A DNA stretch of 64,000 bases from Bacillota bacterium (GTDB taxonomy: Bacteria; Bacillota; Clostridia; Christensenellales; CAG-138): positions 16,189 to 80,188 of the forward strand of contig JAEYSE010000020.1 of the NCBI GenBank assembly GCA_023435025.1, in the 5' to 3' direction. Position numbers and translations under genes: made by a program. Numbering within the stretch: position 1 is the stretch's first letter; each line of letters opens with the position of its first letter. This document shows positions 11,929 to 26,929 of this stretch, piece after piece. The notes under the pieces are model-generated. The model had not been told where the DNA came from. It worked only from the letters and a program-made list of their open reading frames with translations, and searched no databases.

Positions 11929-11962
11929 GGCTGTTCTCCTTTCAGTTATATAAACCCTGCGG

Positions 11963-13081
11963 TTATACCGCAAGCTTGATAAGCTTCCCGCATGCCTTGT
12001 CATAAACATTGAGCTTTCCGGGATCTATAACCAAGCGCACCTTTTCGTTGATTTGGTAGTCCATGATGCCGATCTGCTTGGAAAGGAATTCGGCGTTGCC
12101 TACGGTCAACGTAACCAGCGTTTCGGAGCCTGCGGGCTGGCTGGCGTAGATGCTTGCCTCTATCCCGTCGCCGGTGCCGCCCCGCTCAATACGTACCTGC
12201 TCGGGGCGCAGGCCGAACACGCAGGGGAACTCTCCGGAAGGCAGGGGCACATCCGACATGTCCTTTTTGCAGTAGCGGAACGTGCCAATCGCGCAGGCGG
12301 CGGTCAGATGATCGCCGTCGTAGGACGCGGTCCCCTGAAGGAAATTGATGCGGGGGTTGCCGATGAAGTCTGCCGCCATCAGGGTGCCGGGGTTCATATA
12401 CAGATCCAGCGGCGTTGCGACCTGGGCCAGTACACCCTCGGAATACAGCGCGATCTTGGTGGACATCGTAAGCGCCTCCACCTGGTCGTGCGTGACATAT
12501 ATGATGGTGGTACCCATTTCGTTGTGCAGACGCTTCAATTCGGAACGCATGTCGATGCGCAGCTTGGCGTCCAGGTTAGATAGCGGTTCGTCCAATAGCA
12601 GCAGCTTCGGCTCGGAAGCGATGGCGCGGGCGATCGCCACGCGCTGCTGCTGGCCGCCGGAAAGCTCGTTGGGGTACCGCTTTTCGAATTCGCCGATCCG
12701 CATCATTTCCAGCGCTCTTTTGACCATCTTGTCAATTTGGCTGGCGGACATTTTTTTAATCTTCAGGCCGAACGCCACGTTCTCGTATACCGTCATATGC
12801 GGCCAAAGGGCATAGCTTTGGAACACAAGGTTGAGCTCGCGTTTGCTCGGCTCCTCAAAATAGGCGAGGTCGCAGTTGATAACCTCCCGCCCGTCCATGC
12901 GCATAATGCCGTTCTGCGGCTTTTCAAGCCCCGAAACCACGCGCAGCGTGGTCGTCTTTCCGCAGCCTGACGGCCCCAATAGCGTCATGAAGTCTCCGTC
13001 TTCGATCGTCAGGGACAAATCCTTTAATACATGGTTGTCGCCGAAATACTTGTCAATATGCTCCAGTTCGATTCTACTCAT
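11963..13081 (-). CDS. ABC importer ATP-binding protein, cassette 2
   Basis: Walker A GPSGCGKTT, LSGGQQQR, LLLDEPLSNLD. High identity to 3351..4478 along the full length. Confidence 0.92.
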   Translation of the reverse strand: MSRIELEHIDKYFGDNHVLKDLSLTIEDGDFMTLLGPSGCGKTTTLRVVSGLEKPQNGIMRMDGREVINCDLAYFEEPSKRELNLVFQSYALWPHMTVYENVAFGLKIKKMSASQIDKMVKRALEMMRIGEFEKRYPNELSGGQQQRVAIARAIASEPKLLLLDEPLSNLDAKLRIDMRSELKRLHNEMGTTIIYVTHDQVEALTMSTKIALYSEGVLAQVATPLDLYMNPGTLMAADFIGNPRINFLQGTASYDGDHLTAACAIGTFRYCKKDMSDVPLPSGEFPCVFGLRPEQVRIERGGTGDGIEASIYASQPAGSETLVTLTVGNAEFLSKQIGIMDYQINEKVRLVIDPGKLNVYDKACGKLIKLAV

Positions 13082-13126
13082 TGCGTATTTTCCTCTCTTT
13101 CCGCATTCACAAACGGCTTAAACTAA

Positions 13127-14953: not shown

Positions 14954-15000
14954 ACCTCTTTCTTTCTGGGTAGAAATTTGCCTGTATGGCGGCCTTCGTT

Positions 15001-15783
15001 TTAGTGGCTTTCATTACGATGGCTTTCATTATAGGACCGGATAATGCCGATAACCTCCGGCAGCGCTTTTATGGTATAGTCCGGCTGGTAGCCGCACCCT
15101 TCAAGCTTGCGTTCACGTTCCAGCACATGCGGCTTTGCTTCGCTGAACAATATGCGTATCATCAGGCCCCATCCCGCGTTCTTTACGCCGATGACGTCCC
15201 GTGAAATGGTATCTCCCACATAGGCCATTTCCTCGGCCTTCAAACCCATGGAATTCCTGCAAAGATCGAATATTCGCCTGTCCGGCTTTCTCAGTCCGCA
15301 TACGCTGGATAGGAGTATATACTCAAAGTAGCCGGAAACGCCGTATTCCTGCAGGAAATGAGGCGCATACGTCCTCGAAAGCGTGTTGCTGAGTATGGCC
15401 AAGCGCATGCCCTGCTCTCGTAGACCCTGCAGGCACTCGTGCAGGCCCTCTCGCGGAGCGTCTTGCGCGTGGTTACACCAAAGAAAGCTTAAGTCCTCTG
15501 AAATGGGGAACAGCTGCTCTGTTGTCGCGCCATAATCCTTTAAAAAGAAGTTACGCCATGCCTCAAGCGGGGGGATTTCCTCTACCAGTTGTTCGGAAGC
15601 ACGCTTGCGGGCATGGTCGGCTTCCGAGAGTTTTAAGGCGAAAGTCTCGACTGGGTCGGGTATGCGAACTCCTCGGAGCTCAAGAAGATTTTTGATCTTT
15701 CTCGCACAGAGAAGGTGTCGTTTCGGGTCTTCTGTCAATGTGTGAATGACGCCGCCCATATCAAATACAACTGCCTGAATCAA
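15001..15783 (-). CDS. HAD-superfamily hydrolase, motif I DxGxV; first gene of the long operon
   Basis: VVFDMGGVIHTL, ILSNT, RKPD, VGDTISRDVIGVKNAGWG. Preferred start is the TTG at 15783 (RBS AAGGCGGG, 8-nt spacer). The track ORF extends to a TTG at 15855 that has no RBS. Confidence 0.8.
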   Translation of the reverse strand: MIQAVVFDMGGVIHTLTEDPKRHLLCARKIKNLLELRGVRIPDPVETFALKLSEADHARKRASEQLVEEIPPLEAWRNFFLKDYGATTEQLFPISEDLSFLWCNHAQDAPREGLHECLQGLREQGMRLAILSNTLSRTYAPHFLQEYGVSGYFEYILLSSVCGLRKPDRRIFDLCRNSMGLKAEEMAYVGDTISRDVIGVKNAGWGLMIRILFSEAKPHVLERERKLEGCGYQPDYTIKALPEVIGIIRSYNESHRNESH

Positions 15784-15884: not shown

Positions 15885-15898
15885 TGCAAACGATTGCG
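15885..15898. promoter_or_regulatory. LacI-family operator-like site TGCAAACGATTGCG
   Basis: Lies 20 nt downstream of the -10 of the operon promoter. It shares the TGCAAACG half-site with the sites at 22565 and 26692, and with one half of 44675. Confidence 0.5.
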
Positions 15899-15917
15899 TT
15901 AAAAATTATTTGTACTT

Positions 15918-15946
15918 ATCATAATGGCATATCTTTATTCTGTCAA
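15918..15946 (-). promoter_or_regulatory. Sigma-A-type promoter of the 13-gene operon
   Basis: On the minus strand: TTGACA (15946-15941), 17-nt spacer, TATGAT (15923-15918). Confidence 0.6.
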
Positions 15947-16180
15947 TTGCTTTTTTATGTTCAATTTTAAATAAAACACGGTTTCTCCCTAATTATCGGC
16001 AAAATACTAGTATAAACAGCTAAAACAGGACCGTTCGCGGCGTTTGTTGGGCAGGGAGCATCTCCCAGGCGGAAGGGAAGCATTGCATCGTTTGGGGGAA
16101 GATTTTTGCGGCATTTTATGCATACGTTTACGAATGTCGGTTCTTCATGACAGGGGCCCGAGGCATATGCCCGAATGTCG

Positions 16181-17938
16181 TTACCGAATTTCAAACTGCG
16201 AAGCGTACAGGCTTGCATACATGCCTCCAGCCCGCAAAAGGTCCTCATGCTTGCCCTGTTCCACGATCCGCCCATGGTCCATCACAAGTATCAGATCCGC
16301 GCGCTCAATTGTAGAAAGCCTATGTGCGATGACAAAGCATGTCTTTCCATGCATCAGCTTTTTCATCGCTTCGTTGATTTCAATCTCAGTCGCAGTATCC
16401 ACATTGGAGGTCGCCTCGTCCAGTATCAGCATGCTGGCGTCCAGCAGCATGGCGCGGGCGATGGTCAAAAGCTGCTTCTGGCCTTTTGATATATTGAGGC
16501 TGTCATCGGAAAGCAGGGTATCATATCCGTCGGGCAGCGACATGATGAAATTGTGGATTTTCGCGGCCTTTGCGGCCTCCTGCACGCGCGCTAATGTGGC
16601 GTTCTCGCTCCCATAAGCGAGGTTCTCGTAAATGGTCCCATAAAACAGCCACGTATCCTGTAGCACCATGGCATAGGCCCGCCGCAGCTGCTTGCGGGCC
16701 ATGTCACGCACATCGCTGCCGTCCACCAATATGCGCCCGCCGCTCACGTCATAAAACCGCATCAACAGGTTTACGATTGTCGTCTTGCCCGCGCCCGTGG
16801 GGCCCACAATTGCAGTTAAGGTGCCGCTTTTTACGTCCGCCGTCAAATCGTGCAGGATGTCGATATCCTGCTCATACCCGAACTTCACATGCTGCAGATT
16901 GATATCCCCTTGGGGGGAAAACGGAGCATCTTCCGCTGTTTCACCCGTCGGCTCCGGCTCCTCGTCAATCAGCCGGAACACCCGCTGTGCTGCGGCCACC
17001 GCCGCTTGTATTTCTGTAATAATATTTGCCGCCTCGCGAATCGGCCCAGAAAACTTGCGCGAATATAGAATGAATGAGGAGATATTGCCCAAAGAGATGC
17101 TGCCGGCAATATAAAGGAGCGCCCCAAACACGCTGATAAACGACAGCGACATGTTGTTGATGAAATTGACCAAAGGTCCCAAAATCCTACTTTCATAATC
17201 CGCCCGGTAGTTCGCTTCTATCGCCGCGTCGTTGCGCTCGCGGAACCGCTCGATCTGTTCTGCCTCCCTGCCGTAGGCGCGAATGGTCCTTTGGCCGGAA
17301 ATGCTTTCTTCCACGAACCCGTTGAGTTTGCCCAGCTTTTCCGAACGGAGCAGGTACAAGGGATGCTGCCGCTTGACCTGTCGCCCCGTAAACAGCATGG
17401 TAAGGGGAACCGCCGCTAAGAACACGCAGGAAAGCAGCGGGGAAATAACGAGCAGCATGATAAAGGATCCAACGACCGTTACCACCGAGGTGCAGACCTG
17501 CATGAGATCGGTGGAAAGCGACGAGTTGATTGTGTCGATATCGAAACAGACGCGGCTGATAATATCCCCCGACGGATGCGTATCGAAGTATTTCACCGGC
17601 AGATCCACCAGTTTGTGGAACACATCCTTGCGCAGCTCATAGGAAACCTGTTGGCTTAAATTGATCAGGCCCACCGAGAGCCAATAGGAAAGCGTTGAGG
17701 AAAGCGCGAAGCAAATTACCATCAGGCCGCAGTTTAGGAAGATACGGGAAAAGTCAACATTGCCTGATGTTATGCCTATGGCGTCCACGGCGCGGCCGGA
17801 CAGAAACGGAATAGCGAGCTCAAGCGCATTGGCGGCAAGCATGGCCACAAAGAGCAGAATCAGCCTACCGCGCTTGGTTTTTAAGTACTTCCACAGCCTT
17901 TTAAGGGTTGCAAATATGCCGCTAAGCCGTTCTTTCAT
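16181..17938 (-). CDS. ABC exporter, fused TMD-NBD half-transporter (consensus ATPase site)
   Basis: Six-helix N-terminal domain. GPTGAGKTT, ISKGQKQL, LILDEATSNVD, FVIAHRLST. 4-bp start/stop overlap with the upstream partner. Confidence 0.88.
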   Translation of the reverse strand: MKERLSGIFATLKRLWKYLKTKRGRLILLFVAMLAANALELAIPFLSGRAVDAIGITSGNVDFSRIFLNCGLMVICFALSSTLSYWLSVGLINLSQQVSYELRKDVFHKLVDLPVKYFDTHPSGDIISRVCFDIDTINSSLSTDLMQVCTSVVTVVGSFIMLLVISPLLSCVFLAAVPLTMLFTGRQVKRQHPLYLLRSEKLGKLNGFVEESISGQRTIRAYGREAEQIERFRERNDAAIEANYRADYESRILGPLVNFINNMSLSFISVFGALLYIAGSISLGNISSFILYSRKFSGPIREAANIITEIQAAVAAAQRVFRLIDEEPEPTGETAEDAPFSPQGDINLQHVKFGYEQDIDILHDLTADVKSGTLTAIVGPTGAGKTTIVNLLMRFYDVSGGRILVDGSDVRDMARKQLRRAYAMVLQDTWLFYGTIYENLAYGSENATLARVQEAAKAAKIHNFIMSLPDGYDTLLSDDSLNISKGQKQLLTIARAMLLDASMLILDEATSNVDTATEIEINEAMKKLMHGKTCFVIAHRLSTIERADLILVMDHGRIVEQGKHEDLLRAGGMYASLYASQFEIR

Positions 17939-19647
17939 ATCGCCGCCCCTCCCATCTGCACCTGCGCGATCTTTCGGTAGCTTTCGCAGGTGTCCATCAG
18001 GTGCCTGTGGGTTCCGGCTCCTTCAATTTGCCCGTCCGCGAGCACCAGGATGTGGTCGGCGTTGCATACGGAGCTGATCCGCTCCGAGATAATCACCGTT
18101 GTTGTGTCGCTGTATTCCCCGCTGATGGCGGCGCGCAGCAGGGCGTCCGTACGGTAATCGAGCGCGCTTTCAGCGTCGTCCAATATCAATATTTCCGGGG
18201 TTCCGGCTAACGCCCGGGCGATTAAAAGCCGCTGCTTCTGGCCGCCGCTCAAATTCGCCCCCCGGATATCGATCATGTGATTGTAACCGCCGGAAAGCCC
18301 CAGTATAAACTCCTCCGCCTGCGCGGCGCGGGCGGCTTTTTCCACCTCCGCTTGCGGGATATTGCGCATAAAGGAGATGTTTTCGTATACGCTGTCGTTC
18401 AAAAGCACGTCGTTCTGGAACACTACGCCAAAACGGCCGGACAGCTCGCTTTGGGGAATACCGCTTATAAGATCCCCGCCTATCCGGATGCTTCCGCCCT
18501 GCGCTTCATAAAGCCGCATCAACAGGCTCACTAGCGTCGTCTTTCCGCTTCCGGTGGGGCCGATGATGCCAAGCGTCTCCCCTCGTTTGACACAGAAGGA
18601 AATGCCCGTGAGATCATTTTGCTTGCCATTATACGAAAAGCTGACGTCGTCAAAACGGATGTGGCAGTCATCGTCCACATGCGCTCGGTTTCCCGTCGCT
18701 TTGGCTTCGTCCTTTAATAGTACTTCCTCCACGCGGTTCATGGAGGCGCTGCCCCTGGACCAGATGGCGAACATTTTTGTAATGGAAAGCGCCGCGTTGA
18801 TGACGATTGTATAGTATGAAAGAAAGGCGATGATTTTGCCCACCTGCATCAGCCCCGCCTGCACGCGGTACGCGCCTACCAGGATTACCAGCGTCAGCCC
18901 GATGTTCAGAATAAGGCTCATCATCGGGTTGGTAGAGGCCACAACCCGCCCCGCCTTTTTTTCAATGTCCGCAACGCCCTCGTTTACTTTGGCGAACCTT
19001 TGCTTTTCATAACCTGTCTTTGAGAGCGCCTTAATAACACGCACCCCCACCGCGTTTTCGCGTAAGATGCGAACCAAGCCCTCAATTTTTTGCTGCGCCT
19101 CGCGATAAAGCGGGGTGCTCCTTTTATACACCCACCGGATCAGAACGATCAAAGCCGGGGTCATCAGAAGCTGTATGAGCGCCATTGCGGGCTCCATCGT
19201 AAAGGAAAGCGTAATCCCTCCCACGATCAAAAGCGGCGTGCGGACCCCCAGGCGCTGCATCCTGTCTAGCAGCGTATGGATATTGTACGTATCGTTGGTG
19301 AGTCTGGATATCAAAGAAGGTAGCGCGAACCGGTTCATATCCGGAAAGGACAGGCGGGAGATCTTTGCAAACAGGTCAAAGCGGAGTTCCCTCGTAATAT
19401 CGCGGGATACCTTGGCCGCCATGCGGTTTGCCCAGACATTGAAGGAAAATGCGATTCCCGCGCAGATAGCCATCAGCCCGCCATACAGATATACCGCTTT
19501 GACGTCCTTGACTGGTACGACCTCATCAATCACGTAAGCAAGCAGCCACGGCAATACCAGATCCATCATTGTGCCGATAAACTTAATGAGCAGGCCAAAG
19601 GACATCCTGCCGATAAAAGGTTTTAAATACTGGCGGACAATATGCAT
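17935..19647 (-). CDS. ABC exporter, fused TMD-NBD half-transporter (degenerate ATPase site)
   Basis: GPTGSGKTT, LSGGQKQR, but Walker B is ILILDDAESALD (catalytic Glu replaced by Asp) and the H-loop reads VIISERISS (no His). Confidence 0.85.
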   Translation of the reverse strand: MHIVRQYLKPFIGRMSFGLLIKFIGTMMDLVLPWLLAYVIDEVVPVKDVKAVYLYGGLMAICAGIAFSFNVWANRMAAKVSRDITRELRFDLFAKISRLSFPDMNRFALPSLISRLTNDTYNIHTLLDRMQRLGVRTPLLIVGGITLSFTMEPAMALIQLLMTPALIVLIRWVYKRSTPLYREAQQKIEGLVRILRENAVGVRVIKALSKTGYEKQRFAKVNEGVADIEKKAGRVVASTNPMMSLILNIGLTLVILVGAYRVQAGLMQVGKIIAFLSYYTIVINAALSITKMFAIWSRGSASMNRVEEVLLKDEAKATGNRAHVDDDCHIRFDDVSFSYNGKQNDLTGISFCVKRGETLGIIGPTGSGKTTLVSLLMRLYEAQGGSIRIGGDLISGIPQSELSGRFGVVFQNDVLLNDSVYENISFMRNIPQAEVEKAARAAQAEEFILGLSGGYNHMIDIRGANLSGGQKQRLLIARALAGTPEILILDDAESALDYRTDALLRAAISGEYSDTTTVIISERISSVCNADHILVLADGQIEGAGTHRHLMDTCESYRKIAQVQMGGAAI

Positions 19648-19898
19648 GTCGGCTCCTCAGGATTGCGGCTGATGCCGCTTCAATCACCCGGGAACGGGGG
19701 CGCGTTTTTGTTGAACCGCAGACCAGAAAGGTAAGTAAGAAGCGGGAAGGGCTTAATTTTCCTCCATAGATCAGGCACTCGCTTAGCCATGATTTCAAGC
19801 GCTAAAAGCTGAGGTCCTGCAGGCAAAACAATTCAAACCAAAACACTGCAATCCCTCTCCGCTTAAAATTTTGAATGCTAGAAAAAATGTCCCGACGG

Positions 19899-20789
19899 TC
19901 AGCCTTGATAAAATTCGTCGATATAAGCTTTCACCTGTTCGCGCGTACCCAGGAACGGCCCGGGCGTTTCCATCTTGAGCGATACCAAGGCCGAGGCCCA
20001 CAGCAGCGCCTCCGGAATATCCGCATACAGGCGTTCCGTGATATATCCGGAAAAGCAGGTATCCCCCCGGCCCGTGCGGCCAATCAGACTGCGCGGCTTC
20101 AACGGACAGGTATAGACTTTTTTTCCATCGTATACGAGCACTTCGGTGTTATGGGTAATCATGACCTCCTGCGCGCCCCATGCGTAGAGCTGCTTGGCGG
20201 CCTGTTCCCGGTCGGTCATGCCGGTCATTATTTCCGCCTCCGCGGCGTCCATCTTTAAAAAGCGGATCATGGGGAGGTAGGTAAGCTTCTCTTCCCAATC
20301 ATGGAACACCATGGTGCCATTTTCCTCGCACCTTAGCAGACATTGTACATCCACGGCAGCCATAGCCTTTTTTGCTGCGTAGGCGATGATTTCATTTCCT
20401 AAATCCCCCCGCATCAGACCGGCAATGTGATAGATGCTCGCGTCCACTTCTGGGATCTCGTTTACCGCGTACGGCTCTATGCGGCTGAGCATGGTGCAGG
20501 TACGCCTTTCACGGTCAGCGGTGTGGTAGACGTTTTGAATGGAGGTGCTGTGCGTGCTGTTAAGCGGGAAAACAGTGACGTTCTTTGCCCCTGAAAACAG
20601 GTTGTCTAAGTCCATATCAGCCTTGCTCGCCTTGGGTAGCGCTGCAACCGTTCGCCCCATGCCCGACGCCGCAAAGCCGGAGAATACAACCGCCCCGCCG
20701 ATCGCGCGAAGGGTTACGCCGTCATAATCCGTGTTGACGTCCAAACTGGGCTGGCCCAGAATGAATGTGTCGAATTTCTTTTTCCCCAT
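19899..20789 (-). CDS. PfkB-family carbohydrate/small-molecule kinase
   Basis: N-terminal ILGQPSLDV and the C-terminal anion-hole region GRTGRGDTCFSGY typical of the ribokinase/PfkB fold. Abuts the PHP gene with no gap. Confidence 0.75.
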   Translation of the reverse strand: MGKKKFDTFILGQPSLDVNTDYDGVTLRAIGGAVVFSGFAASGMGRTVAALPKASKADMDLDNLFSGAKNVTVFPLNSTHSTSIQNVYHTADRERRTCTMLSRIEPYAVNEIPEVDASIYHIAGLMRGDLGNEIIAYAAKKAMAAVDVQCLLRCEENGTMVFHDWEEKLTYLPMIRFLKMDAAEAEIMTGMTDREQAAKQLYAWGAQEVMITHNTEVLVYDGKKVYTCPLKPRSLIGRTGRGDTCFSGYITERLYADIPEALLWASALVSLKMETPGPFLGTREQVKAYIDEFYQG

Positions 20790-21518
20790 CTAATTCCTAC
20801 CTCCAAAATAGGCGTTGCACTTTGCAATCAAATGCTGAAATTCGTCGCTATGCACGCGGTATGCTCTTTGTTGCACCGCGCGCTTATAATCGAAGGAGTC
20901 AGAAAGCCGCGCGTCAAACACCATTGCCGCGCGCCCTTCATCACCCGGACGGTGCGTATCGGAGCTGCAGGTCCTAAGCAGATGAGGGTTTTCCATGCAA
21001 AGCGCGAGCGCCTGATCATTGCCGTTTTCATGGCGGGGGCTGCAGTTGATGTATTCAATCCCGTGTACGCAATCATAATGGATAAGGCCGTGCTGCTTCC
21101 GGAACGGGTGCGCGTGTATGATCAAAACCTCGTTTTTGAACGTTTGATAAAAGTCATGCGGGTCCATGCGATACGGGTAGGGGTTGCGTTTGAGAAACGC
21201 CTCGTCTATGCCGTACACCAGGTAATCGTTGTTGCTGTCCTGTTCAAAACGCAATTCAGCTCCCAGAAGCACGTCAAACCCCAATTCGGCCCCTCTTTGC
21301 TTCGCGGTTTTGTAACCAAGGAGGAACCGGTCCACGCACGCGTCCCAATCATCGTTGCAGTCTAGCGAGGAAATGTAAGTTTCGTGCAGGTGGTCCGTCA
21401 CAATAAATCCGGCGTAGCCCTTCTCATGGTACGTTTCCACCAGTGTTTTTGCGGCTATCCTTCCGCAGTGGCTGGTTTCCAGGGTATGGACGTGCGGGTC
21501 GTACAAGTATTCTTTCAT
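20790..21518 (-). CDS. PHP-domain phosphoesterase (histidinol-phosphatase-like fold)
   Basis: N-terminal DPHVHTLETSHC metal motif, TDH, IHAHP, SSDTHRPGDEG. Confidence 0.7.
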   Translation of the reverse strand: MKEYLYDPHVHTLETSHCGRIAAKTLVETYHEKGYAGFIVTDHLHETYISSLDCNDDWDACVDRFLLGYKTAKQRGAELGFDVLLGAELRFEQDSNNDYLVYGIDEAFLKRNPYPYRMDPHDFYQTFKNEVLIIHAHPFRKQHGLIHYDCVHGIEYINCSPRHENGNDQALALCMENPHLLRTCSSDTHRPGDEGRAAMVFDARLSDSFDYKRAVQQRAYRVHSDEFQHLIAKCNAYFGGRN

Positions 21519-21537
21519 AGGTCCTCCGGGTTAAAAA

Positions 21538-22545
21538 TTATACCAACGAAATACAGGATTTACGCTTGATCAGCGTGGGCAACAGGATCTGATGCGAGTA
21601 ACCGAGCGACGGATTGCGGAGCTTTTCCAGCATCATATCCACCGCGATCGCCGCCATTGTCATTTTGGGCTGCTCGATCGTGGTAAGGTTGATTTTGGGA
21701 AGGCCCGTAAAATGGATATTGTCGAACCCGAGCAGTGAGAGATCCTCGGGTATCCGTACGCCGCATTCGTCGGCTGCCTGAAGCACCCCCAAAGCGTTGG
21801 AGTCCGTGGACGCGAATATGGCGGTATAGTCAAAGCGGCTTGCAAACAGCTGCTTGGCCAGGGCGTAGCCGTTCTGTATGGAGCTTGCCATGTACGGGCT
21901 GTTGAAAAAGCACGGCGTAATCTTATAATCGCGGCATGCGTCGCTGTATCCGTCCGAGCGCAGCTGGTGGGTGTTGCTGCCTTTGCGGTATCCAAAGTAC
22001 AGGATGTTCCTGTGCCCCAGGGAATACAGGTATTCCGTGCCGATATACGTACCCCGGTAATTATCTACGGCCACATAGCTTTCCGGCGCGTCCCGCAGGT
22101 TTTCGCTGACAAACACGGTGGGCACCTTGTTCAGATACTTTTTCAGGCGGCCATACGTATCGATGCTGGAGGGGACGATGATAATGCCGTCTACCTGCCT
22201 GCCCATCAGCAGCTCAAACACCTGCTCCTCCTGAGCTAAGTCGTTAGAGGAGTTACACAGCATGATGTTGTAACCGCGTGCCCGCGCGTTCAGCTCAATA
22301 TGGTACGCGATCTCGGACATAAACGGATTTTCTATGCTGGTTACGATTAGCCCGATGAGCTTTGTGCGTTTCATCACCATGGAACGGGCCACGAAATTGG
22401 TGGTATAGCCCATTTCCTTGCAAATCTTCACAATGCGCTCGCGAGTTTCGGTGCTGATCTCGGGGCTGTTGGACAGCGCGCGCGAAACGGTGGCATAGGA
22501 CACATTCGCAACCTTGGCAATGTCCTTAATTGTGACGTTTTTCAT
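21538..22545 (-). CDS. LacI-family transcriptional regulator (full length, with HTH)
   Basis: MKNVTIKDIAKVANVSYATVSRALSNSP HTH followed by a PBP1 effector domain (IGLIVTSIENPF...). Confidence 0.9.
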   Translation of the reverse strand: MKNVTIKDIAKVANVSYATVSRALSNSPEISTETRERIVKICKEMGYTTNFVARSMVMKRTKLIGLIVTSIENPFMSEIAYHIELNARARGYNIMLCNSSNDLAQEEQVFELLMGRQVDGIIIVPSSIDTYGRLKKYLNKVPTVFVSENLRDAPESYVAVDNYRGTYIGTEYLYSLGHRNILYFGYRKGSNTHQLRSDGYSDACRDYKITPCFFNSPYMASSIQNGYALAKQLFASRFDYTAIFASTDSNALGVLQAADECGVRIPEDLSLLGFDNIHFTGLPKINLTTIEQPKMTMAAIAVDMMLEKLRNPSLGYSHQILLPTLIKRKSCISLV

Positions 22546-22564
22546 GATTCACGCTCCTGTAGAA

Positions 22565-22578
22565 TGCAAACGTTTTCG
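22565..22578. promoter_or_regulatory. LacI-family operator-like site TGCAAACGTTTTCG (autoregulatory position)
   Basis: Imperfect palindrome (10 of 14 positions symmetric) located 8 nt downstream of the -10 and just upstream of the lacI RBS. Confidence 0.55.
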
Positions 22579-22586
22579 TTATACAA

Positions 22587-22616
22587 ATCATACTACATCT
22601 CTATATAGGATGTCAA
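22587..22616 (-). promoter_or_regulatory. Sigma-A-type promoter of the lacI-PHP-pfkB operon
   Basis: On the minus strand: TTGACA (22616-22611), 18-nt spacer, TATGAT (22592-22587). Confidence 0.6.
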
Positions 22617-22723
22617 TTGCACCGTCTACAGGCCCCAAAGGCATGTGACTCCCAAATCTGCCGTGGTACTTTTAAGGTTGTGTTAACAGTTTTGATAAAA
22701 TTTTCGTAAATTTACGCCTTATT

Positions 22724-24289
22724 TTAGATATATTGCGTTCCTCCACCCCGTACAAGCGCCGCATATACCTTTTCGATTTTCGCGTAATTTCCGTCCCGAT
22801 CCAAGGCCAGTCCGCGTCCCACGCCGTCCACAATCTGCCCCGTACCGATTTTGGTGATTTGCGTTTCAAGCTCTTCAAGCAGTTTGGGCGCGCTGCCCGG
22901 CTCGGTGCTGCGTCCATCAAATATGATATGCACATATACCTTGGGCAGGTCCTTGGCCATTTGCAGCAGCGCAAGCGGATAGTCTATGGAGCCGTGGGAG
23001 GATTTTTTGGTCAGCAGGGCGAGTAAATGCAAAGCGGCCCCATTTTTTCTGACACGATCGATTGCGTTTAGGAACACCTCGTTTTGCAAAAAGGAGCCGT
23101 CCTTCATGGCTTGGTCCAGCCGGATATCATCCTGCTGCACGATCCTGCCTGCCCCGATGTTGGAGTGACCCGCCTCCGAATTGCCGGGCTTGCCTTCCTG
23201 CAAACCTACCGCCTCGCCTGAAGCGCGCAGCCGGGAGGGCGTATAGTCGGCGTTGAGCCGATCCCATACGGGGGTCTCCGCCAAATAGATGGGGTTGGTG
23301 TTGTCTTGCTTTCCAATACCCCACCCATCCAGAATAATGAGCAGCAGCTTACGGTCTTTGCCAAAATCATGCCCGGCAGCAAGGCTTACGCCCGTCATGC
23401 CTGCGGGCTGCGGAATGCGGAGTACTTGCAATGCTGTAGGCGCGACGTCTGAAAGGTTCCCGTTCGAAAGCGCGATGGGAGCGTCCGAATCCGGGTCGAT
23501 CAAAAAAAAGGAAACGAGGTTCGACGTATGCGCCACATGCGGCTTGCCTTCGGGTGTGCACATTTCCTCCAGGTTGCCGTGGTCGGCGGTAATGGCGGTT
23601 ACATAGCCATGCCGCTTAGCCGCTTCTAGCACACGCCCCAGGTGGTAATCCACATGCGCGGCGCACTCTATTTTCGCCTTTTCATTGGAGGTATGCCCGA
23701 TCACGTCCCCGTTCGCGAAATTGACCACGATCCATTCGCGCCCATCCTCCAACCCTTTTATAACCGTATCGGCCACCTCGGGCAGGCGCAACGCTGGGAC
23801 TTGGTAAAAAGGAATGCCCTTGGGCGAGGGGATGCAGACGTCGTCTTCGCCGGGGAACGGCACATTGTTCCCGCCGTTTAAAAAGAACGTCACATGGGCG
23901 TATTTTTCGGACTCCGCGCAGTGCAACTGCCTAAGCCCCGACTTACTTACCGTTTCCGCCAACGTATCCTTCCCGCGTGTCGGTGCGAAAGCGATGGGCA
24001 GATCCTTGTACTTTTCGTGGTACATGGTCAGTATGACAAATGAAAGGTCCGAATAGCGTTCCCGTTCAAAATGCGGAAACTCCGCGGCTGTGAACGCGTC
24101 CGTCAGCTCAATCTCCCGTTCGCCGCGGCGGCAGCAGAATATGACCGCGTCGCCGTCGCGGACGCGACCGATTGCGTTGCCTTCTTCATCCACGCGAACC
24201 AGCGGCTCCATGGAATAATCGGCCTGGCCACGGGCATAGGCGTCCCTGACTGCATTCGCTAAGGCTACTCCGCCGTATTCCCCATGCAT
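22724..24289 (-). CDS. Circularly permuted cofactor-independent phosphoglycerate-mutase-like enzyme (alkaline phosphatase superfamily)
   Basis: All iPGM motifs are present but in the order C-terminal half then N-terminal half: ESEKYAHVTFFLNGG, NGDVIGHT, TADHGN, VAHTSN, IPQPAGMTG, linker, IILDGWG, GNSEAGHSNIGAGRIV, FDGRS, LDRDGNYAKIEKVY. Start set at the ATG at 24289 (RBS AAGGAGG, 7-nt spacer). Confidence 0.85.
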   Translation of the reverse strand: MHGEYGGVALANAVRDAYARGQADYSMEPLVRVDEEGNAIGRVRDGDAVIFCCRRGEREIELTDAFTAAEFPHFERERYSDLSFVILTMYHEKYKDLPIAFAPTRGKDTLAETVSKSGLRQLHCAESEKYAHVTFFLNGGNNVPFPGEDDVCIPSPKGIPFYQVPALRLPEVADTVIKGLEDGREWIVVNFANGDVIGHTSNEKAKIECAAHVDYHLGRVLEAAKRHGYVTAITADHGNLEEMCTPEGKPHVAHTSNLVSFFLIDPDSDAPIALSNGNLSDVAPTALQVLRIPQPAGMTGVSLAAGHDFGKDRKLLLIILDGWGIGKQDNTNPIYLAETPVWDRLNADYTPSRLRASGEAVGLQEGKPGNSEAGHSNIGAGRIVQQDDIRLDQAMKDGSFLQNEVFLNAIDRVRKNGAALHLLALLTKKSSHGSIDYPLALLQMAKDLPKVYVHIIFDGRSTEPGSAPKLLEELETQITKIGTGQIVDGVGRGLALDRDGNYAKIEKVYAALVRGGGTQYI

Positions 24290-24308
24290 ACCGGCACCTC
24301 CTTTATGC

Positions 24309-25067
24309 TTATTTCTTTGCGGTGCCTGCCTCAAGGCAGACACTCGGTGCCTTCGGGAATATATCCAGCAGTTGCCGGATGTCGCTTATGATGATGTCAG
24401 GCCTGTTCTCGTCGGTGATGATTTCTCTGGAGGGGTTATCGGGGTAATCGATACCTACATTCAGCCCGAATCCAGCGGATTTTGCGCCAATGATATCGCG
24501 GGCGTAATTGTCCCCCACGCAAGCGCAAAGCGCTGGCGGTACGTTTGCCTCTTCCACCGCCTGCAAATAGATTGCGGGGTCCGGCTTGCGAATGCATGTC
24601 ACGGAGGACAGCACCACGGTCTTGAAATAATGCTCCAGCCCATCTTCCTTGAGCCAATCCTGGATTTCATGGCAGCCGATGAGGTTGCTGATAATTCCCA
24701 GCGTGTAGCCCCGTTTGTACAGCGTGTCTATGACCTCCACGCCGCCATCAATAACGTACCGCTTGCCTTTGGCCTGGCGGTACTGGTACGTAAGCTCCGG
24801 GGCGTTCGCGGCAATGCGCTCCGCCGGGTATTCGGGGGCCAGCCAGCGAGTCCAGAGCTCGGCTTCCGGCGCTTCACGATTGGTATCAATCGCCCAGTCA
24901 CGGTATTTGTCATAGCGCTGGTCGATCAACTTGTGGAACTGCTTTGGGTCCATATCTGTGCCGACCAGCTCCGCGATTTTAGACATTGCGTTATACTGAT
25001 GCTCCGGCTCCTTGCGCAGGATGCGAAGCGTGCCGCCAAGATCAAAGAATATACCCTGAATATCCAT
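24309..25067 (-). CDS. HAD-superfamily hydrolase, motif I DxGxT (tandem paralog 3 of 3)
   Basis: IFFDLGGTL, IISNL, RKPD, VGDNYARDIIGAKSAGFG. RBS GGGAGGAG. Confidence 0.85.
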   Translation of the reverse strand: MDIQGIFFDLGGTLRILRKEPEHQYNAMSKIAELVGTDMDPKQFHKLIDQRYDKYRDWAIDTNREAPEAELWTRWLAPEYPAERIAANAPELTYQYRQAKGKRYVIDGGVEVIDTLYKRGYTLGIISNLIGCHEIQDWLKEDGLEHYFKTVVLSSVTCIRKPDPAIYLQAVEEANVPPALCACVGDNYARDIIGAKSAGFGLNVGIDYPDNPSREIITDENRPDIIISDIRQLLDIFPKAPSVCLEAGTAKK

Positions 25068-25088
25068 GGTTCTCCTCCCTATATCCGT

Positions 25089-25835
25089 CTATATTGCCGC
25101 TTCTAAATTGCGCGGCGGGAACATAGTCAGCAGTTCGGCAAGATCGTATAGTACGGCGTCCGGCTCGCACCCTTCGGGCGCGGGCTTTAAAGTCTTCCCG
25201 GGTTCCACAAACAACAGGAAAGCGCCAAAGCCTGCGGCTTTTGTGCCTGCGACATCGCGCTTGACGTTATCCCCCACGTATACACAGCGTTCGGGCGATA
25301 TTCCCACCTCCCGCGCGGCCATACGGTGCATCTCCGGGTCGGGTTTGCGGATGCCGCATACCGCTGAAAGCAGAACGGACTTGAAATATGGGGTCAGTCC
25401 GTCCGCCTCCAGCCAATCCGGAATCTCCTTTGAGGTGATCAAGTTGCTGATAATGCCCAAGGTATATCCCCTCAGGTGCAGTTCGCGGATGACCTCCGCG
25501 CCATGCTCGGCAACCACCCGCCGCCCCTTGGCATTGCGGTAGTGGATTGTTAGCTCCACGGCGGCGGCAGCAACGCTGTCCTTCGGAAATTCCGGCGCAA
25601 GCCACCGCGTCCAAAGTTCAGACTCGGGCGCTTCCTTCATTTCTTCAAACGCCCATTTGCGGTAATCCAGATACCGTTCATCCAGAAGGGCGCAGAACGC
25701 CTTGGGTTCCGCATCGGTGTTTAGCAGCCGTGTGATGTTCCGTAGGGCGTCGTTTTGGAACGCCTCGTCCTCCACTAAAAGGCGAAGCGTGCCGCCGAGG
25801 TCAAAAAATATCGCATCGAAGTTTTCCGTATTCAT
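25089..25835 (-). CDS. HAD-superfamily hydrolase, motif I DxGxT (tandem paralog 2 of 3)
   Basis: IFFDLGGTL, IISNL, RKPD, VGDNVKRDVAGTKAAGFG. ATGA overlap with the upstream paralog. Confidence 0.85.
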   Translation of the reverse strand: MNTENFDAIFFDLGGTLRLLVEDEAFQNDALRNITRLLNTDAEPKAFCALLDERYLDYRKWAFEEMKEAPESELWTRWLAPEFPKDSVAAAAVELTIHYRNAKGRRVVAEHGAEVIRELHLRGYTLGIISNLITSKEIPDWLEADGLTPYFKSVLLSAVCGIRKPDPEMHRMAAREVGISPERCVYVGDNVKRDVAGTKAAGFGAFLLFVEPGKTLKPAPEGCEPDAVLYDLAELLTMFPPRNLEAAI

Positions 25836-26587
25836 GCATTATCTCCCTGCGTCGCCTTTATGCGGGAAGGAAACAGGCCAAGAAGCTCCGAAATTTCGTC
25901 TATTGTATGGTCCAGCGGAAAGTCCGCCGACTGCGGCTCGTTTTTGAGCGTAGCCGGTTCGTTGATGAGTATCATTTTCGCAAAGCCGGACGCGCGCGTA
26001 CCCTCCGTATCGCGTATGGGATTGTCTCCCACATAGGCACACTGAGCGGGTATGGAGCCGATCGTACGGGCGGCAAGCAGGTAGATCTCAGGATCTGGCT
26101 TGCGGAGCCTGACCTTTGAGGAGAGTATCACGGTGCGGAAGCAGCTTGCCACGCCGTCCGCAATCATCCAGTCCGGTATTTCGGTTTCCGTGATGGTATT
26201 TGCAATAATGCCCAGCTTGTAACCGCGCCGGACCAGTTCTTGTAGCGTCGCCTTGACGTCGTGCCTTGGAATGCGTCTGCCGTCATGGTCACGCCAAAGC
26301 CGCGTAAGCCGCCCGGCATTTGCCGTAATCAGCTCGGCAGGATAATCCGGAAGCAGCCAGAACGTCCAAAGCTCCATTTCCGAAGCTTCCAGCATACTGC
26401 GCTTGCTTTGCTTGCGGTATGCGTCCCATCTGCTTTCCAGCTTGCTGAAAAAAGCGTCGTGGGGCTCCGTTGCTCCTACGAGCCGCATCAGCTCGTGTTC
26501 CGCCGCAGCCTGAAACGGCGCGTCCTTTACAACGATTCTCAGGGTGTTGCCAACATCAAAGAATATGGTGTCGATCTCCGGCTTCAT
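25832..26587 (-). CDS. HAD-superfamily hydrolase, motif I DxGxT (tandem paralog 1 of 3)
   Basis: IFFDVGNTL, IIANT, RKPD, VGDNPIRDTEGTRASGFA. RBS CAGGAGGG. Confidence 0.85.
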   Translation of the reverse strand: MKPEIDTIFFDVGNTLRIVVKDAPFQAAAEHELMRLVGATEPHDAFFSKLESRWDAYRKQSKRSMLEASEMELWTFWLLPDYPAELITANAGRLTRLWRDHDGRRIPRHDVKATLQELVRRGYKLGIIANTITETEIPDWMIADGVASCFRTVILSSKVRLRKPDPEIYLLAARTIGSIPAQCAYVGDNPIRDTEGTRASGFAKMILINEPATLKNEPQSADFPLDHTIDEISELLGLFPSRIKATQGDNA

Positions 26588-26691
26588 AACGCCCTCCTGC
26601 AGAATGGAATTTTATAACACTTATTTCGGTTTTTGTGTCTATTTATGAGGGTTTTTGCCGTTTAAGTGGATTCGTAGCCTTCCAGACTGAC

Positions 26692-26705
26692 CGCAAACGT
26701 TTGCG
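26692..26705. promoter_or_regulatory. LacI-family operator, perfect 14-bp palindrome CGCAAACGTTTGCG
   Basis: Perfect dyad in the 5' leader of the HAD-HAD-HAD-iPGM-like operon, about 105 nt upstream of the first start codon. Confidence 0.6.
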
Positions 26706-26747: not shown

Positions 26748-26776
26748 ATACTAGTCACAAAAAAACCTTTTGTCAA
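26748..26776 (-). promoter_or_regulatory. Candidate sigma-A promoter of the HAD/iPGM-like operon
   Basis: On the minus strand: TTGACA (26776-26771), 17-nt spacer, TAGTAT (26753-26748). Confidence 0.45.
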
Positions 26777-26929
26777 GCATAAAAATAGGCTCTGCCGAAA
26801 AAAAATTCCTGATTCACCCCGTTCAGCTGCAAAAAAGCTATACTGGATTGGACAGCACTGTATGATGTAAAATGAAATCGTATACGTTTACAAACGCAAA
26901 AGCAGCCCAAATGAACGGGAGAAAAGCAG

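What the first reader, a model, noticed from the sequence alone, without database searches (positions are those of the whole stretch)
15885..26705. Shared TGCAAACG-type operator downstream of three near-consensus promoters links three operons into one putative LacI regulon
Three minus-strand leaders each carry a TTGACA-N17/18-TA(T/G)(G/T)AT promoter followed by a related 14-bp dyad:
- 15885-15898 TGCAAACGATTGCG (13-gene ABC/HAD/MBL/EEP operon)
- 22565-22578 TGCAAACGTTTTCG (lacI-PHP-pfkB operon, autoregulatory position)
- 26692-26705 CGCAAACGTTTGCG (perfect palindrome; HAD x3 + permuted iPGM operon)

A fourth site at 44675-44688 (TGAAAGCGTTTGCA) shares one half-site and precedes the MBL-ABC genes of cassette 3. 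The operators upstream of the other LacI gene (45792, 45901; GGGAAC half-site) are clearly different.

This points to the LacI at 21538-22545 co-controlling importers, phosphoesterases, kinase and mutase as one functional system. No single gene annotation would reveal that link.
Basis: seen in the sequence. Interest (0 to 1): 0.65.

Follow-up and report, generated by a model that had tools for sequence, protein, structure and literature searches.

The report
LacI repressor regulon with shared operators
A LacI-type repressor in a gut or rumen Clostridia genome most likely switches off its own operon and at least two neighbouring operons through one shared 14-bp DNA site; this is an ordinary kind of gene control, but it ties together an uncharacterised gene set that probably handles inositol phosphates.

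Summary

- **Enrichment.** A weight matrix trained only on sites from other genomes finds 7 hits of at least 15 bits in the 64-kb window. Chance gives 0.54, and the next-best hit scores 11.8. Six of the seven hits lie in the 8.7% of the window that is non-coding.
- **New sites.** Two hits are new, conserved distal operators at 16119-16132 and 26879-26892.
- **Conservation.** In 15 loci carrying LacI-1 relatives (56-93% identity), of which 14 keep regulon genes next to the repressor gene, the motif CGnAAACGTTTnCG lies in front of the repressor gene wherever that stretch was read and in front of the same gene modules, despite rearrangement.
- **Control.** It is absent from 316 kb of loci that have related kinase-hydrolase pairs but no LacI-1.
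- **Not CcpA.** LacI-1 scores 184 bits against the ccpA model (cutoff 442). Only site 4 fits the cre consensus.
- **Second repressor.** LacI-2 has its own conserved operator, ATGGGAACGTTCCCAT.
- **Site 4.** It has no promoter of its own and sits inside the LacI-2 to MBL3 transcript. It is conserved only in close relatives, so its assignment to LacI-1 is tentative.

This is a new member of a well-known kind, a local autoregulated LacI-family regulon. The added value is functional: the kinase resembles a pyrophosphate-dependent inositol kinase, and the cluster repeatedly sits next to inositol catabolic genes.

The parts
21538..22545 (-). LacI-1, the LacI-family repressor proposed to bind the shared operators
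   Evidence: It has the LacI helix-turn-helix domain (PF00356) plus Peripla_BP domains. It falls below every NCBIfam equivalog cutoff: ccpA 184/442, PurR 199/501. The recognition helix VSYATVSRA and the hinge ARSMV are conserved in all orthologues. It ends where the LacI core ends, so it has no tetramerisation helix.
22565..22578 (-). Autoregulatory operator (site 2), CGAAAACGTTTGCA on the gene strand, at about +3..+16
   Evidence: An equivalent dyad lies just after the -10 in front of the LacI orthologue in L001-L009. High-scoring sites lie next to the repressor gene start in L041-L046.
22587..22616 (-). Promoter of the LacI-1, PHP, PfkB operon: TTGACA-N18-TATGAT
   Evidence: 11 of 12 consensus positions.
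19899..21518 (-). PHP phosphoesterase (20790-21518) and PfkB kinase (19899-20789), co-transcribed with LacI-1
   Evidence: Pfam assignments. The gene order LacI-PHP-PfkB is conserved in L001-L003, L005, L006, L008, L009, L042 and L044. PfkB is homologous to TM0415 (E 1.7e-38) and keeps the RXGRGD motif.
26692..26705 (-). Operator of the HAD x3 plus permuted-iPGM operon (site 3), a perfect palindrome CGCAAACGTTTGCG at about +37..+50
   Evidence: Equivalent sites lie in front of the HAD/iPGM operon in L001, L006-L009 and L042-L046.
26748..26776 (-). Promoter of the HAD/iPGM operon: TTGACA-N17-TAGTAT
   Evidence: 10 of 12 consensus positions. It is identical in L001.
26879..26892 (-). Distal operator of the HAD/iPGM operon, TGTAAACGTATACG on the gene strand, 187 bp upstream of site 3. 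Not in the original finding.
   Evidence: It scores 16.2 bits with the independently trained matrix and is non-coding.
22724..26587 (-). Target operon: three HAD phosphatases (25832-26587, 25089-25835, 24309-25067) and a circularly permuted iPGM-like enzyme (22724-24343)
   Evidence: Pfam and NCBIfam assignments. Synteny with LacI-1 orthologues.
15885..15898 (-). Proximal operator of the 13-gene operon (site 1), CGCAATCGTTTGCA on the gene strand, at about +14..+27
   Evidence: It is one of only four conserved islands in the alignment of this leader with L001-L003. The same AATCGTTT variant is kept in L002, L003, L041 and L044.
16119..16132 (-). Distal operator of the 13-gene operon, CGTAAACGTATGCA on the gene strand, 234 bp upstream of site 1. 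Not in the original finding.
   Evidence: It scores 15.6 bits. It forms an invariant block in alignment A1. A paired distal site with the same ACGTAT or ACGTGT variant occurs in L001-L003, L041, L042 and L044.
15918..15946 (-). Promoter of the 13-gene operon: TTGACA-N17-TATGAT
   Evidence: The -35 and -10 elements are conserved in alignment A1.
1433..15783 (-). Target operon of 13 genes. In order: HAD, fused ABC permease, ATPase, binding protein, unknown, HAD, LacI-like sensor without a DNA-binding domain, MBL hydrolase, EEP phosphoesterase, second permease, ATPase, binding protein, unknown.
   Evidence: Pfam assignments. Gaps between genes are short. The likely true start of the first gene is the TTG at 15783, which has a ribosome-binding site. 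A stem-loop at 10568-10594 follows the first binding-protein gene; it has no T-run on the gene strand.
7770..7783 (.). Candidate site inside the MBL gene, TGTAAACGTCTGCA. Status uncertain.
   Evidence: It scores 15.2 bits but lies in coding sequence. Its conservation was not examined, so it may be a chance match.
44675..44688 (-). Site 4, TGCAAACGCTTTCA on the gene strand, between the LacI-2 stop codon and the MBL3 start codon. Probably acts as a roadblock.
   Evidence: 15.2 bits. No promoter is predicted between LacI-2 and MBL3. It is a conserved island in L001 and in L047 (TACAAACGTTTTCA, 15.5 bits). It is absent from L048 and L049. It is the only site that also fits the cre consensus.
39420..44589 (-). 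Cassette 3: MBL3, binding protein, two permeases, ATPase. Downstream of site 4.
   Evidence: Pfam assignments. LacI-2 lies directly upstream in L001, L047, L048 and L049. In L001 the cassette directly abuts the HAD/iPGM operon.
44750..45914 (-). A separate system, given for contrast: LacI-2 (44750-45745) with its promoter (45840-45812) and two operators of its own, GGGAACGTTCTC, at 45794-45805 and 45903-45914
   Evidence: The motif ATGGGAACGTTCCCAT occurs twice upstream of the LacI-2 orthologues in L047-L049. Its recognition helix is VSKTTVSRA, against VSYATVSRA in LacI-1.

Best explanation
**What it is.** LacI-1 (21538-22545) is a local, autoregulated repressor of the LacI/GalR family.

**How it most likely works.**
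- A dimer binds 14-bp even palindromes, consensus CGnAAACGTTTnCG with a central CG. These lie at or just downstream of the start of transcription of three sigma-A-type promoters.
- Binding blocks initiation at its own promoter and blocks promoter escape or elongation at the other two.
- The repressed units are (i) LacI-1, PHP, PfkB; (ii) three HAD phosphatases plus a permuted iPGM-like enzyme; and (iii) the 13-gene HAD, ABC-importer, MBL and EEP operon.
- Units (ii) and (iii) each carry a second, weaker operator 187 and 234 bp upstream.
- A fifth target is probable: the site inside the LacI-2 to MBL3 transcript would make cassette 3 answer to both repressors.
- An unidentified small molecule, most likely a phosphorylated sugar or cyclitol, is inferred to release the repressor.

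**Shown.** The sites, their positions, their enrichment and their conservation together with the regulator.

**Inferred.** That LacI-1 is the binding protein, that it represses, and what the effector is.
For: - **Sites and promoters** are present as described.
- **Independent matrix:** 7 hits against 0.54 expected, with a clear score gap. Six of the 7 are non-coding.
- **Autoregulatory site:** conserved just after the -10 in L001-L009; high-scoring sites sit next to the repressor gene in L041-L046.
- **The sites track the modules through rearrangement.**
  - EEP and LacI are divergent in L002 and L003.
  - HAD/iPGM and LacI are divergent in L006-L009 and L042-L046.
  - The importer operon lies on either side of the repressor gene.
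- **Footprint alignment of the importer leader:** only the distal site, the -35, the -10 and the proximal site are conserved.
- **Density:** 46 sites of at least 14 bits in 229 kb of LacI-1 loci. There are none in 316 kb of control loci that lack LacI-1.
- **Specificity logic:** the recognition helix is invariant in orthologues. It differs from LacI-2, whose operator differs at the matching half-site positions, GAAC against AAAC.
- **Literature (PMC4052901):**
  - About 90% of LacI-family factors are local.
  - 72% are autoregulated.
  - Their motifs are even palindromes with a central CG.
Against: - No binding or expression data exist.
- Only 64 kb of this genome could be scanned, so a genome-wide distribution, which would indicate a global regulator, is not excluded.
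- The motif lies within the range of cre and of other LacI-family operators. The literature notes that these overlap (PMC2329647).
- A relative with 62% identity (L004) carries the same motif next to hexuronate-type genes. At least one genome holds two members of this clade. Cross-talk between paralogues is therefore possible.
- Site 4 fits cre and is missing from more distant cassette-3 loci.
- The spacing between paired operators (143-234 bp) is not in helical phase across lineages. LacI-1 also lacks a tetramerisation helix. Looping is therefore unsupported.
Confidence: 0.82

Rival explanations
1. The dyads are cre sites bound by the global catabolite regulator CcpA with HPr-Ser-P. The shared motif would then reflect catabolite repression of several sugar-related operons, not a dedicated regulon.
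For: - Site 4 matches the cre consensus WTGNAANCGNWNNCW exactly, and the other sites differ from it mainly at their outermost bases.
- cre and local LacI-family operators are known to overlap (PMC2329647).
- cre sites inside transcripts act as roadblocks (established knowledge of CcpA). That fits the intercistronic position of site 4.
- The CcpA of this genome could not be examined.
Against: - Sites 1-3 fail both cre consensus patterns.
- 76% of half-sites begin with C rather than T.
- There are 6 non-coding sites within the regulon regions of the window. None scores above 11.8 bits elsewhere, including in front of another kinase/dehydrogenase cluster at 50794-55934.
- The motif always accompanies the LacI-1 orthologue, often as 2-4 copies in one regulatory region.
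- It is absent from 316 kb of control loci.
- LacI-1 itself is not CcpA.
Confidence: 0.07
2. The sites are real operators, but they are bound wholly or partly by another close paralogue of the LacI-1 clade encoded elsewhere in the genome. The regulon would then be shared between paralogues, or belong to the other one.
For: - The clade is large: 1388 proteins at E of 1e-60 or better.
- The Eubacteriales OttesenSCG-928-K08 genome holds two members: the L004 protein at 62% identity and P0070 at 66%.
- The L004 protein has the same recognition helix and the same motif but different neighbours, UxaE and a xylose-isomerase-like TIM-barrel protein.
Against: - LacI-1 is the only member of the clade in the window.
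- Its own promoter carries the best-placed site.
- It stays physically linked to the target operons in 14 of the 15 loci examined.
Confidence: 0.08
3. Site 4 alone is not a LacI-1 operator. It would be a chance or decaying palindrome, or part of an RNA element in the spacer between LacI-2 and MBL3.
For: - It scores only 15.2 bits and has a C in place of the conserved T at the centre (AAACGCTT).
- It is absent from the 63-bp spacers of L048 and L049, although L048 is on the same contig as a LacI-1 orthologue.
- A conserved weak stem-loop follows it.
Against: - It is a conserved island in otherwise diverged spacers of L001 and L047.
- In L047 the centre is the canonical AAACGTTT.
- In L001 the cassette directly abuts the LacI-1 regulon.
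- Related MBL genes sit next to PfkB orthologues in other taxa, which links the cassette to the regulon by function.
Confidence: 0.35

Closest known systems
Local autoregulated LacI-family regulons reconstructed by comparative genomics (Ravcheev et al. 2014, PMC4052901)
   Same: - A LacI helix-turn-helix domain joined to a periplasmic-binding-protein-like sensor.
- An even palindromic operator with a central CG.
- A site in front of the regulator's own gene.
- A few neighbouring operons controlled.
   Different: - The regulated genes are mostly phosphoesterases: five HAD enzymes, PHP, EEP, MBL and a permuted iPGM. With them come fused-permease ABC importers and a homologue of a pyrophosphate-dependent kinase.
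- This is not a typical glycoside-hydrolase and sugar-kinase set.
- No described orthologous group could be matched, because LacI-1 is below every NCBIfam equivalog cutoff.
E. coli PurR and its PUR box (about ACGCAAACGTTTGCGT; motif recalled from my own knowledge, not tested here)
   Same: The core operator sequence is almost identical to site 3, CGCAAACGTTTGCG. PurR structures are among the closest solved relatives of LacI-1.
   Different: - LacI-1 scores 199 bits against a cutoff of 501 for the PurR equivalog.
- PurR is a global regulator that needs a corepressor and is unlinked to its targets.
- LacI-1 is linked to its targets and is predicted to be released by an inducer.
CcpA and cre catabolite control in Firmicutes
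   Same: The same protein family (CcpA is the top solved-structure hit). The operator has the same general shape, and roadblock positions occur inside transcripts.
   Different: - LacI-1 is not CcpA (184 bits against a cutoff of 442).
- Sites 1-3 fail the cre consensus.
- The sites are clustered and travel with the regulator gene.
Thermotoga maritima inositol operon TM0411-TM0416, with the pyrophosphate-dependent myo-inositol kinase TM0415 (PMC5931981)
   Same: - The regulon kinase is a TM0415 homologue that keeps the donor and acceptor residues.
- In L042 and L044 the HAD/iPGM operon runs on into UxaE, a Zn-dehydrogenase, a creatininase-fold gene, a TM0416/IolO-like epimerase and a Gfo/Idh/MocA gene.
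   Different: - The window itself has none of the oxidative inositol genes.
- The many phosphatases and the fused-permease importers have no counterpart among the TM0411-TM0416 pathway enzymes and intermediates listed in PMC5931981.

Membership tests
LacI/GalR-family repressor-operator system | An N-terminal LacI-type helix-turn-helix domain fused to a periplasmic-binding-protein-like effector domain | tested here: met
   PF00356 scores 64.8 bits, with Peripla_BP_1, _3 and _4 also present. The protein aligns over its full length to the CcpA, PurR and LacI structures.
LacI/GalR-family repressor-operator system | An even palindromic operator with a central CG | tested here: met
   The consensus is CGnAAACGTTTnCG, derived from 46 sites. 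The family property is described in PMC4052901.
LacI/GalR-family repressor-operator system | The operator overlaps or follows the promoter of the controlled operon (repressor geometry) | tested here: met
   The operators lie at about +3..+16, +14..+27 and +37..+50 relative to the predicted start of transcription. The promoters are predictions, not mapped starts.
LacI/GalR-family repressor-operator system | Regulator and motif occur together across genomes (cognate assignment) | tested here: met
   A site lies in front of the LacI-1 orthologue in the loci examined. There are no hits of at least 14 bits in 316 kb without LacI-1.
LacI/GalR-family repressor-operator system | Direct binding of the protein to the sites, and release by an effector | not testable with these tools
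   This needs EMSA, DAP-seq or footprinting, plus ligand screening.
CcpA/cre catabolite control | The regulator is a CcpA orthologue | tested here: not met
   The TIGR01481 ccpA model gives 184 bits against a cutoff of 442 for LacI-1, and 157 bits for LacI-2. The CcpA of this genome, if it has one, lies outside the window.
CcpA/cre catabolite control | The sites fit the cre consensus (WTGNAANCGNWNNCW or TGWAANCGNTNWCA) | tested here: not met
   Only site 4 fits the first pattern and none fits the second. Position 1 is C in 76% of half-sites.
CcpA/cre catabolite control | Sites spread genome-wide in front of or inside many unrelated catabolic operons | tested here: inconclusive
   Within the window, and within about 230 kb of orthologous loci, the sites are confined to regulon genes. 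No whole genome could be scanned.
PurR regulon | The regulator is a PurR orthologue | tested here: not met
   The NF007979 PurR model gives 199 bits against a cutoff of 501.
Pyrophosphate-dependent ribokinase-family kinases (TM0415 type); applies to the regulon kinase at 19899-20789 | The RXGRGD motif and the five key residues K171, F221, R229, R232 and M266 | tested here: met
   The alignment to 1VK4 shows GRTGRGD, LKMD (K171) and LKMETPGP (M266) conserved, with F221 replaced by Y. The acceptor residues D11, N78, Q141 and R145 are also kept. The criteria come from PMC5931981. Enzyme activity was not tested.

The most novel reading that the evidence does not exclude
The LacI-1 regulon may encode a so far undescribed cytoplasmic route for using inositol phosphates, derived from phytate or from inositol lipid head groups, in gut and rumen Clostridia.

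- **Proposed steps.** Fused-permease ABC importers take up the phosphorylated cyclitol. A battery of position-specific phosphoesterases strips the phosphates; these are the five HAD enzymes, PHP, EEP, MBL and the permuted iPGM-like enzyme. A TM0415-like pyrophosphate-dependent inositol kinase takes part, possibly running in reverse to save a phosphoryl group as pyrophosphate. In one relative, a proton-pumping pyrophosphatase gene sits next to the kinase gene.
- **Regulation.** LacI-1 would be the repressor that senses an inositol phosphate, and LacI-2 with cassette 3 a linked uptake module.
- **Basis.** The kinase homology and its signature residues. Repeated adjacency to iolG-, iolD-, iolA-, iolE- and IolO/UxaE-type genes. 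A LacI-1 site in front of UxaE in L042 and L044.
- **Not shown.** No substrate, enzyme activity or effector has been demonstrated.
Probability: 0.35. Interest if true: 0.7.

Novelty: new member of a known kind. Interest (0 to 1): 0.4.

Why it matters
The regulatory logic is textbook, so the finding adds no new mechanism. Its value is as a functional link.

- **A defined gene set.** The shared operator groups about 20 poorly annotated genes, plus a probable fifth target, into one co-regulated system. These include five HAD phosphatases, PHP, EEP and MBL hydrolases, a permuted iPGM, two unusual ABC importers and a predicted pyrophosphate-dependent kinase. The system is conserved across Oscillospiraceae, Lachnospiraceae and other uncultured Bacillota.
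- **Relevance.** The context points to inositol or inositol-phosphate metabolism. A 2025 review notes that phytate degraders in the gut other than Mitsuokella remain unidentified (PMC12482443).
- **What it enables.** The regulon gives a defined candidate gene set, and a repressor whose effector could reveal the substrate.

Tried and rejected
- **Metagenome scan with MBL3.** It returned only relatives of 23-46% identity (29-37% over most of the protein), so it did not test site 4 directly. It became a negative control instead and showed a conserved PfkB-MBL gene pair.
- **Longer palindrome.** The five positions on either side of the 14-mer carry no information.
- **DNA looping between paired operators.**
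  - The spacings of 143-234 bp are not in helical phase across lineages.
  - LacI-1 has no tetramerisation helix.
  - I do not claim looping.
- **RNA elements.** Rfam found nothing in the window, so no riboswitch explains the long leaders.
- **Solved-structure searches.**
  - Nothing was found for the first binding protein, the EEP enzyme or the PHP enzyme.
  - The second binding protein gave only marginal iron-binding-protein hits.
  - The MBL matched only ComEC-type domains.
  - None of these helps to name a substrate.
- **Literature.** Searches for this gene combination, and for a LacI-controlled inositol-phosphate cluster, found nothing relevant.
- **Stem-loop at 10568-10594.** I considered it as a terminator that would split the 13-gene operon. 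It has no T-run on the gene strand, so it is more likely a stabiliser or partial stop.
- **Dyads as RNA hairpins or repeat elements.** I rejected this. A 14-bp palindrome with no loop cannot form a stable hairpin, and the sites are conserved at promoters across families.
- **Sensor-only LacI-like protein (8449-9261) as a partner of LacI-1.** It is only about 26% identical to LacI-1 over the sensor domain, and no orthologue was seen in the other loci. I did not pursue it.

Full report

All four dyads are at the stated coordinates:
- 15885-15898 TGCAAACGATTGCG
- 22565-22578 TGCAAACGTTTTCG
- 26692-26705 CGCAAACGTTTGCG
- 44675-44688 TGAAAGCGTTTGCA

The three promoters are among the best sigma-70-type matches in the region:
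- TTGACA-N17-TATGAT at 15946-15918
- TTGACA-N18-TATGAT at 22616-22587
- TTGACA-N17-TAGTAT at 26776-26748

If transcription starts about 7 nt after the -10, the operators span +14..+27, +3..+16 and +37..+50.

The string GCAAACGNTT occurs only at the four sites in 64 kb, with 1.2 matches expected. That pattern was chosen after seeing the sites. I therefore built a weight matrix only from the sites in front of the regulator's orthologues in other genomes, and scanned the window with it.
- It gives 7 hits of at least 15 bits.
- Simulated sequences give a mean of 0.54 and a maximum of 4 in 200 runs.
- The next-best hit scores 11.8 bits.
- Six of the 7 hits lie in the 8.7% of the window that is non-coding (P about 3e-6).

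Two hits are new. One is 16119-16132, 234 bp upstream of site 1. The other is 26879-26892, 187 bp upstream of site 3. A seventh hit, at 7770-7783, lies inside the MBL gene and may be chance.

**2. What surrounds the sites?**

All genes listed here are on the minus strand.

| Unit | Coordinates | Content |
|---|---|---|
| 13-gene operon | 15783 to 1433 | HAD, fused double permease, ATPase, binding protein, unknown, HAD, LacI-like sensor without a DNA-binding domain, MBL, EEP, second permease, ATPase, binding protein, unknown |
| ABC exporter genes | 16181-19647 | two genes |
| Regulator operon | 19899-22545 | PfkB (19899-20789), PHP (20790-21518), LacI-1 (21538-22545) |
| HAD/iPGM operon | 22724-26587 | circularly permuted iPGM-like enzyme (22724-24343), three HAD genes (24309-26587) |
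| Cassette 3 | 39420-45745 | LacI-2 (44750-45745), MBL3 (43639-44589), sugar-type ABC importer (39420-43571) |

The first gene of the 13-gene operon probably starts at the TTG at 15783, not 15855, which gives a leader of about 125 nt. Rfam finds no known RNA element anywhere in the window.

**3. Comparative footprinting**

One scan of representative genomes with LacI-1 returned nine loci with 56-93% identical proteins. They come from Oscillospiraceae, Lachnospiraceae and unclassified Bacillota genome bins. Six more loci came from the protein database.

- **Autoregulatory site.** In L001-L009 a dyad with the core AAACGTTT lies directly downstream of the -10 in front of the regulator gene. In L041-L046 high-scoring sites lie next to the regulator gene start.
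- **The motif follows the gene modules whatever their arrangement.**
  - L001 has the window's gene order, and cassette 3 directly abuts the HAD/iPGM operon.
  - In L002 and L003 the EEP gene is divergent from LacI, with one site for each gene.
  - In L006-L009 and L042-L046 the HAD x4/iPGM operon is divergent from LacI, again with one site for each.
  - The HAD-permease operon carries paired sites in L001-L003, L041, L042, L044 and L046.
- **Importer leader.** Aligned across four genomes, it is conserved only at the distal site, the -35, the -10 and the proximal site. Even the departures from consensus are kept: AATCGTTT at the proximal site, ACGTAT or ACGTGT at the distal site.
- **Pooled motif.** From 46 sites in 229 kb the consensus is CGcAAACGTTTgCG, with uninformative flanks.
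- **Control.** 316 kb of metagenomic loci contain related PfkB-MBL pairs but no LacI-1. They have no hit of at least 14 bits.

**4. Which protein binds?**

LacI-1 has the LacI helix-turn-helix domain and the sensor domains. Its recognition helix VSYATVSRA and hinge ARSMV are invariant in all orthologues.

LacI-2 differs in the recognition helix (VSKTTVSRA). It has its own operator, GGGAACGTTCTC, twice upstream of its gene (45794-45805 and 45903-45914). This is conserved as ATGGGAACGTTCCCAT in L047-L049. The two motifs differ exactly where the helices differ, AAAC against GAAC, which is what is expected of two cognate pairs.

LacI-1 is not CcpA (TIGR01481, 184 bits against a cutoff of 442) and not PurR (199 against 501). 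It is about equally distant from both among solved structures. It ends where the LacI core ends, so it has no tetramerisation helix.

The cre alternative is weakened by several results:
- Sites 1-3 fail the cre consensus.
- C rather than T predominates at position 1.
- The sites cluster, and they travel with the regulator gene.
- No site precedes the other kinase/dehydrogenase cluster in the window.

The cre alternative is not excluded, because no whole genome could be scanned. The literature also notes that cre and local LacI-family operators overlap (PMC2329647). The overall pattern fits what is known of the family. About 90% of its members are local regulators and 72% are autoregulated. Their motifs are even palindromes with a central CG (PMC4052901).

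**5. Site 4**

- No promoter is predicted between the LacI-2 stop codon (44750) and the MBL3 start codon (44589). The only good promoter is upstream of LacI-2. Site 4 is therefore intercistronic and would act as a roadblock.
- LacI-2 sits directly upstream of MBL3 in every relative.
- Site 4 is a conserved island in the diverged spacers of L001 (CGCAAACGCTTTCA) and L047 (TACAAACGTTTTCA, 15.5 bits).
- The 63-bp spacers of L048 and L049 lack it. L048 has only an odd palindrome, CCGCAATGTTTGCGG.
- Site 4 is also the only site that fits the cre consensus.

I rate it as a probable LacI-1 target that was gained in this lineage, but with much less confidence than sites 1-3.

**6. What the regulon may do (inference)**

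- **The kinase.**
  - Its only significant solved relatives are the TM0415 entries and one related PfkB entry (E 1.7e-38).
  - TM0415 is the pyrophosphate-dependent myo-inositol kinase of the Thermotoga inositol operon (PMC5931981).
  - The window protein keeps the RXGRGD motif, K171 and M266, has Y in place of F221, and keeps all four acceptor-binding residues.
- **Thermotoga-type neighbours.**
  - In L042 and L044 the HAD/iPGM operon runs on into five further genes: UxaE, a Zn-dehydrogenase, a creatininase-fold gene, an AP_endonuc_2 gene and a Gfo/Idh/MocA gene.
  - The best solved match of the L042 AP_endonuc_2 protein is TM0416/IolO.
  - A LacI-1 site lies in front of UxaE in both loci.
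- **Classical iol-type neighbours.** L045 and L046 place the importer operon next to Gfo/Idh/MocA, aldehyde dehydrogenase, TPP-enzyme and AP_endonuc_2 genes. L045 also has a proton-pumping pyrophosphatase gene next to the kinase gene.
- **Cassette 3.** It too sits next to such genes, in L047 and L049.

My reading is uptake and stepwise dephosphorylation of an inositol phosphate, feeding into inositol catabolism. This rests on gene context only.

**7. Verdict**

In kind, this is an ordinary local LacI-family regulon. Its interest lies in the gene set it ties together.

Noticed in passing
window 19899-20789 (-): The PfkB kinase is a homologue of Thermotoga TM0415, a pyrophosphate-dependent myo-inositol kinase. 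It keeps the RXGRGD donor motif and all four acceptor-binding residues, so it is probably pyrophosphate-dependent rather than ATP-dependent.
   Followed up: partly
window 22724-24343 (-): A circularly permuted iPGM-like enzyme. The C-terminal metalloenzyme half of canonical iPGM comes first and the N-terminal part comes last (TIGR01307, 460 bits in two swapped stretches). The permuted form is conserved next to the HAD genes in L001, L006, L008, L009 and L042-L046.
   Followed up: partly
window 8449-9261 (-): A LacI-like sensor protein with no DNA-binding domain lies inside the 13-gene operon. Its start codon overlaps the stop codon of the upstream HAD gene, so there is no room for a helix-turn-helix domain. 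It is only about 26% identical to LacI-1, and no orthologue was seen in the other loci.
   Followed up: partly
L013-L031 (for example L018 10001-11864, L020 9112-10975): A TM0415-like PfkB gene sits directly next to an MBL-fold hydrolase gene in many lower-GC (32-48% GC) metagenomic loci, some from human gut. Different transporters accompany the pair: an ABC sugar type in L018 and TctABC in L020. These loci have no LacI-1 and no motif. The kinase-hydrolase pair looks like a portable module of unknown substrate.
   Followed up: partly
L042 1-5075, L044 1-5043, L045 18178-21017, L046 18295-21011, L047 10671-14248, L049 1-6546: Inositol catabolic-type genes repeatedly flank the LacI-1 regulon or cassette 3 in relatives: Gfo/Idh/MocA, AP_endonuc_2 (closest to TM0416/IolO), creatininase-fold, Zn-dehydrogenase, UxaE, a TPP enzyme and an aldehyde dehydrogenase. 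The window itself has none of them.
   Followed up: partly
L045 943-2931: A membrane proton-pumping pyrophosphatase gene lies directly beside the predicted pyrophosphate-dependent kinase gene. This hints at pyrophosphate cycling in the pathway.
   Followed up: no
window 45794-45805 and 45903-45914; L047-L049: LacI-2 has its own conserved pair of operators, ATGGGAACGTTCCCAT. One overlaps the start of transcription and the other lies about 110-140 bp upstream. LacI-2 always sits directly upstream of the MBL3-ABC cassette.
   Followed up: yes
window 10568-10594: A 12-bp GC-rich stem-loop follows the first binding-protein gene of the 13-gene operon. It has no T-run on the gene strand, so it may be an mRNA stabiliser or partial stop that raises binding-protein expression.
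   Followed up: no
window 16181-19647 (-): Two ABC exporter genes (ABC_membrane plus ABC_tran) lie between the LacI-1 operon and the 13-gene operon. The same arrangement occurs in L001-L003 and L041, with no operator of their own. Whether they are read through from the LacI-1 promoter is unknown. The gap after PfkB is 250 bp here and about 850-950 bp in L001-L003.
   Followed up: no
L004 8100-11092: A LacI-1 relative with 62% identity and the same recognition helix carries three copies of the same motif, but it lies next to UxaE and other sugar-acid-type genes. The same organism also encodes a second clade member (P0070). Paralogues may therefore share one motif.
   Followed up: partly
window 50794-55934 (-): A separate cluster holds an FGGY kinase, a Zn-dehydrogenase, an unknown gene and a short-chain dehydrogenase. 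It has no LacI-1-type site, and I used it as an internal negative example.
   Followed up: no
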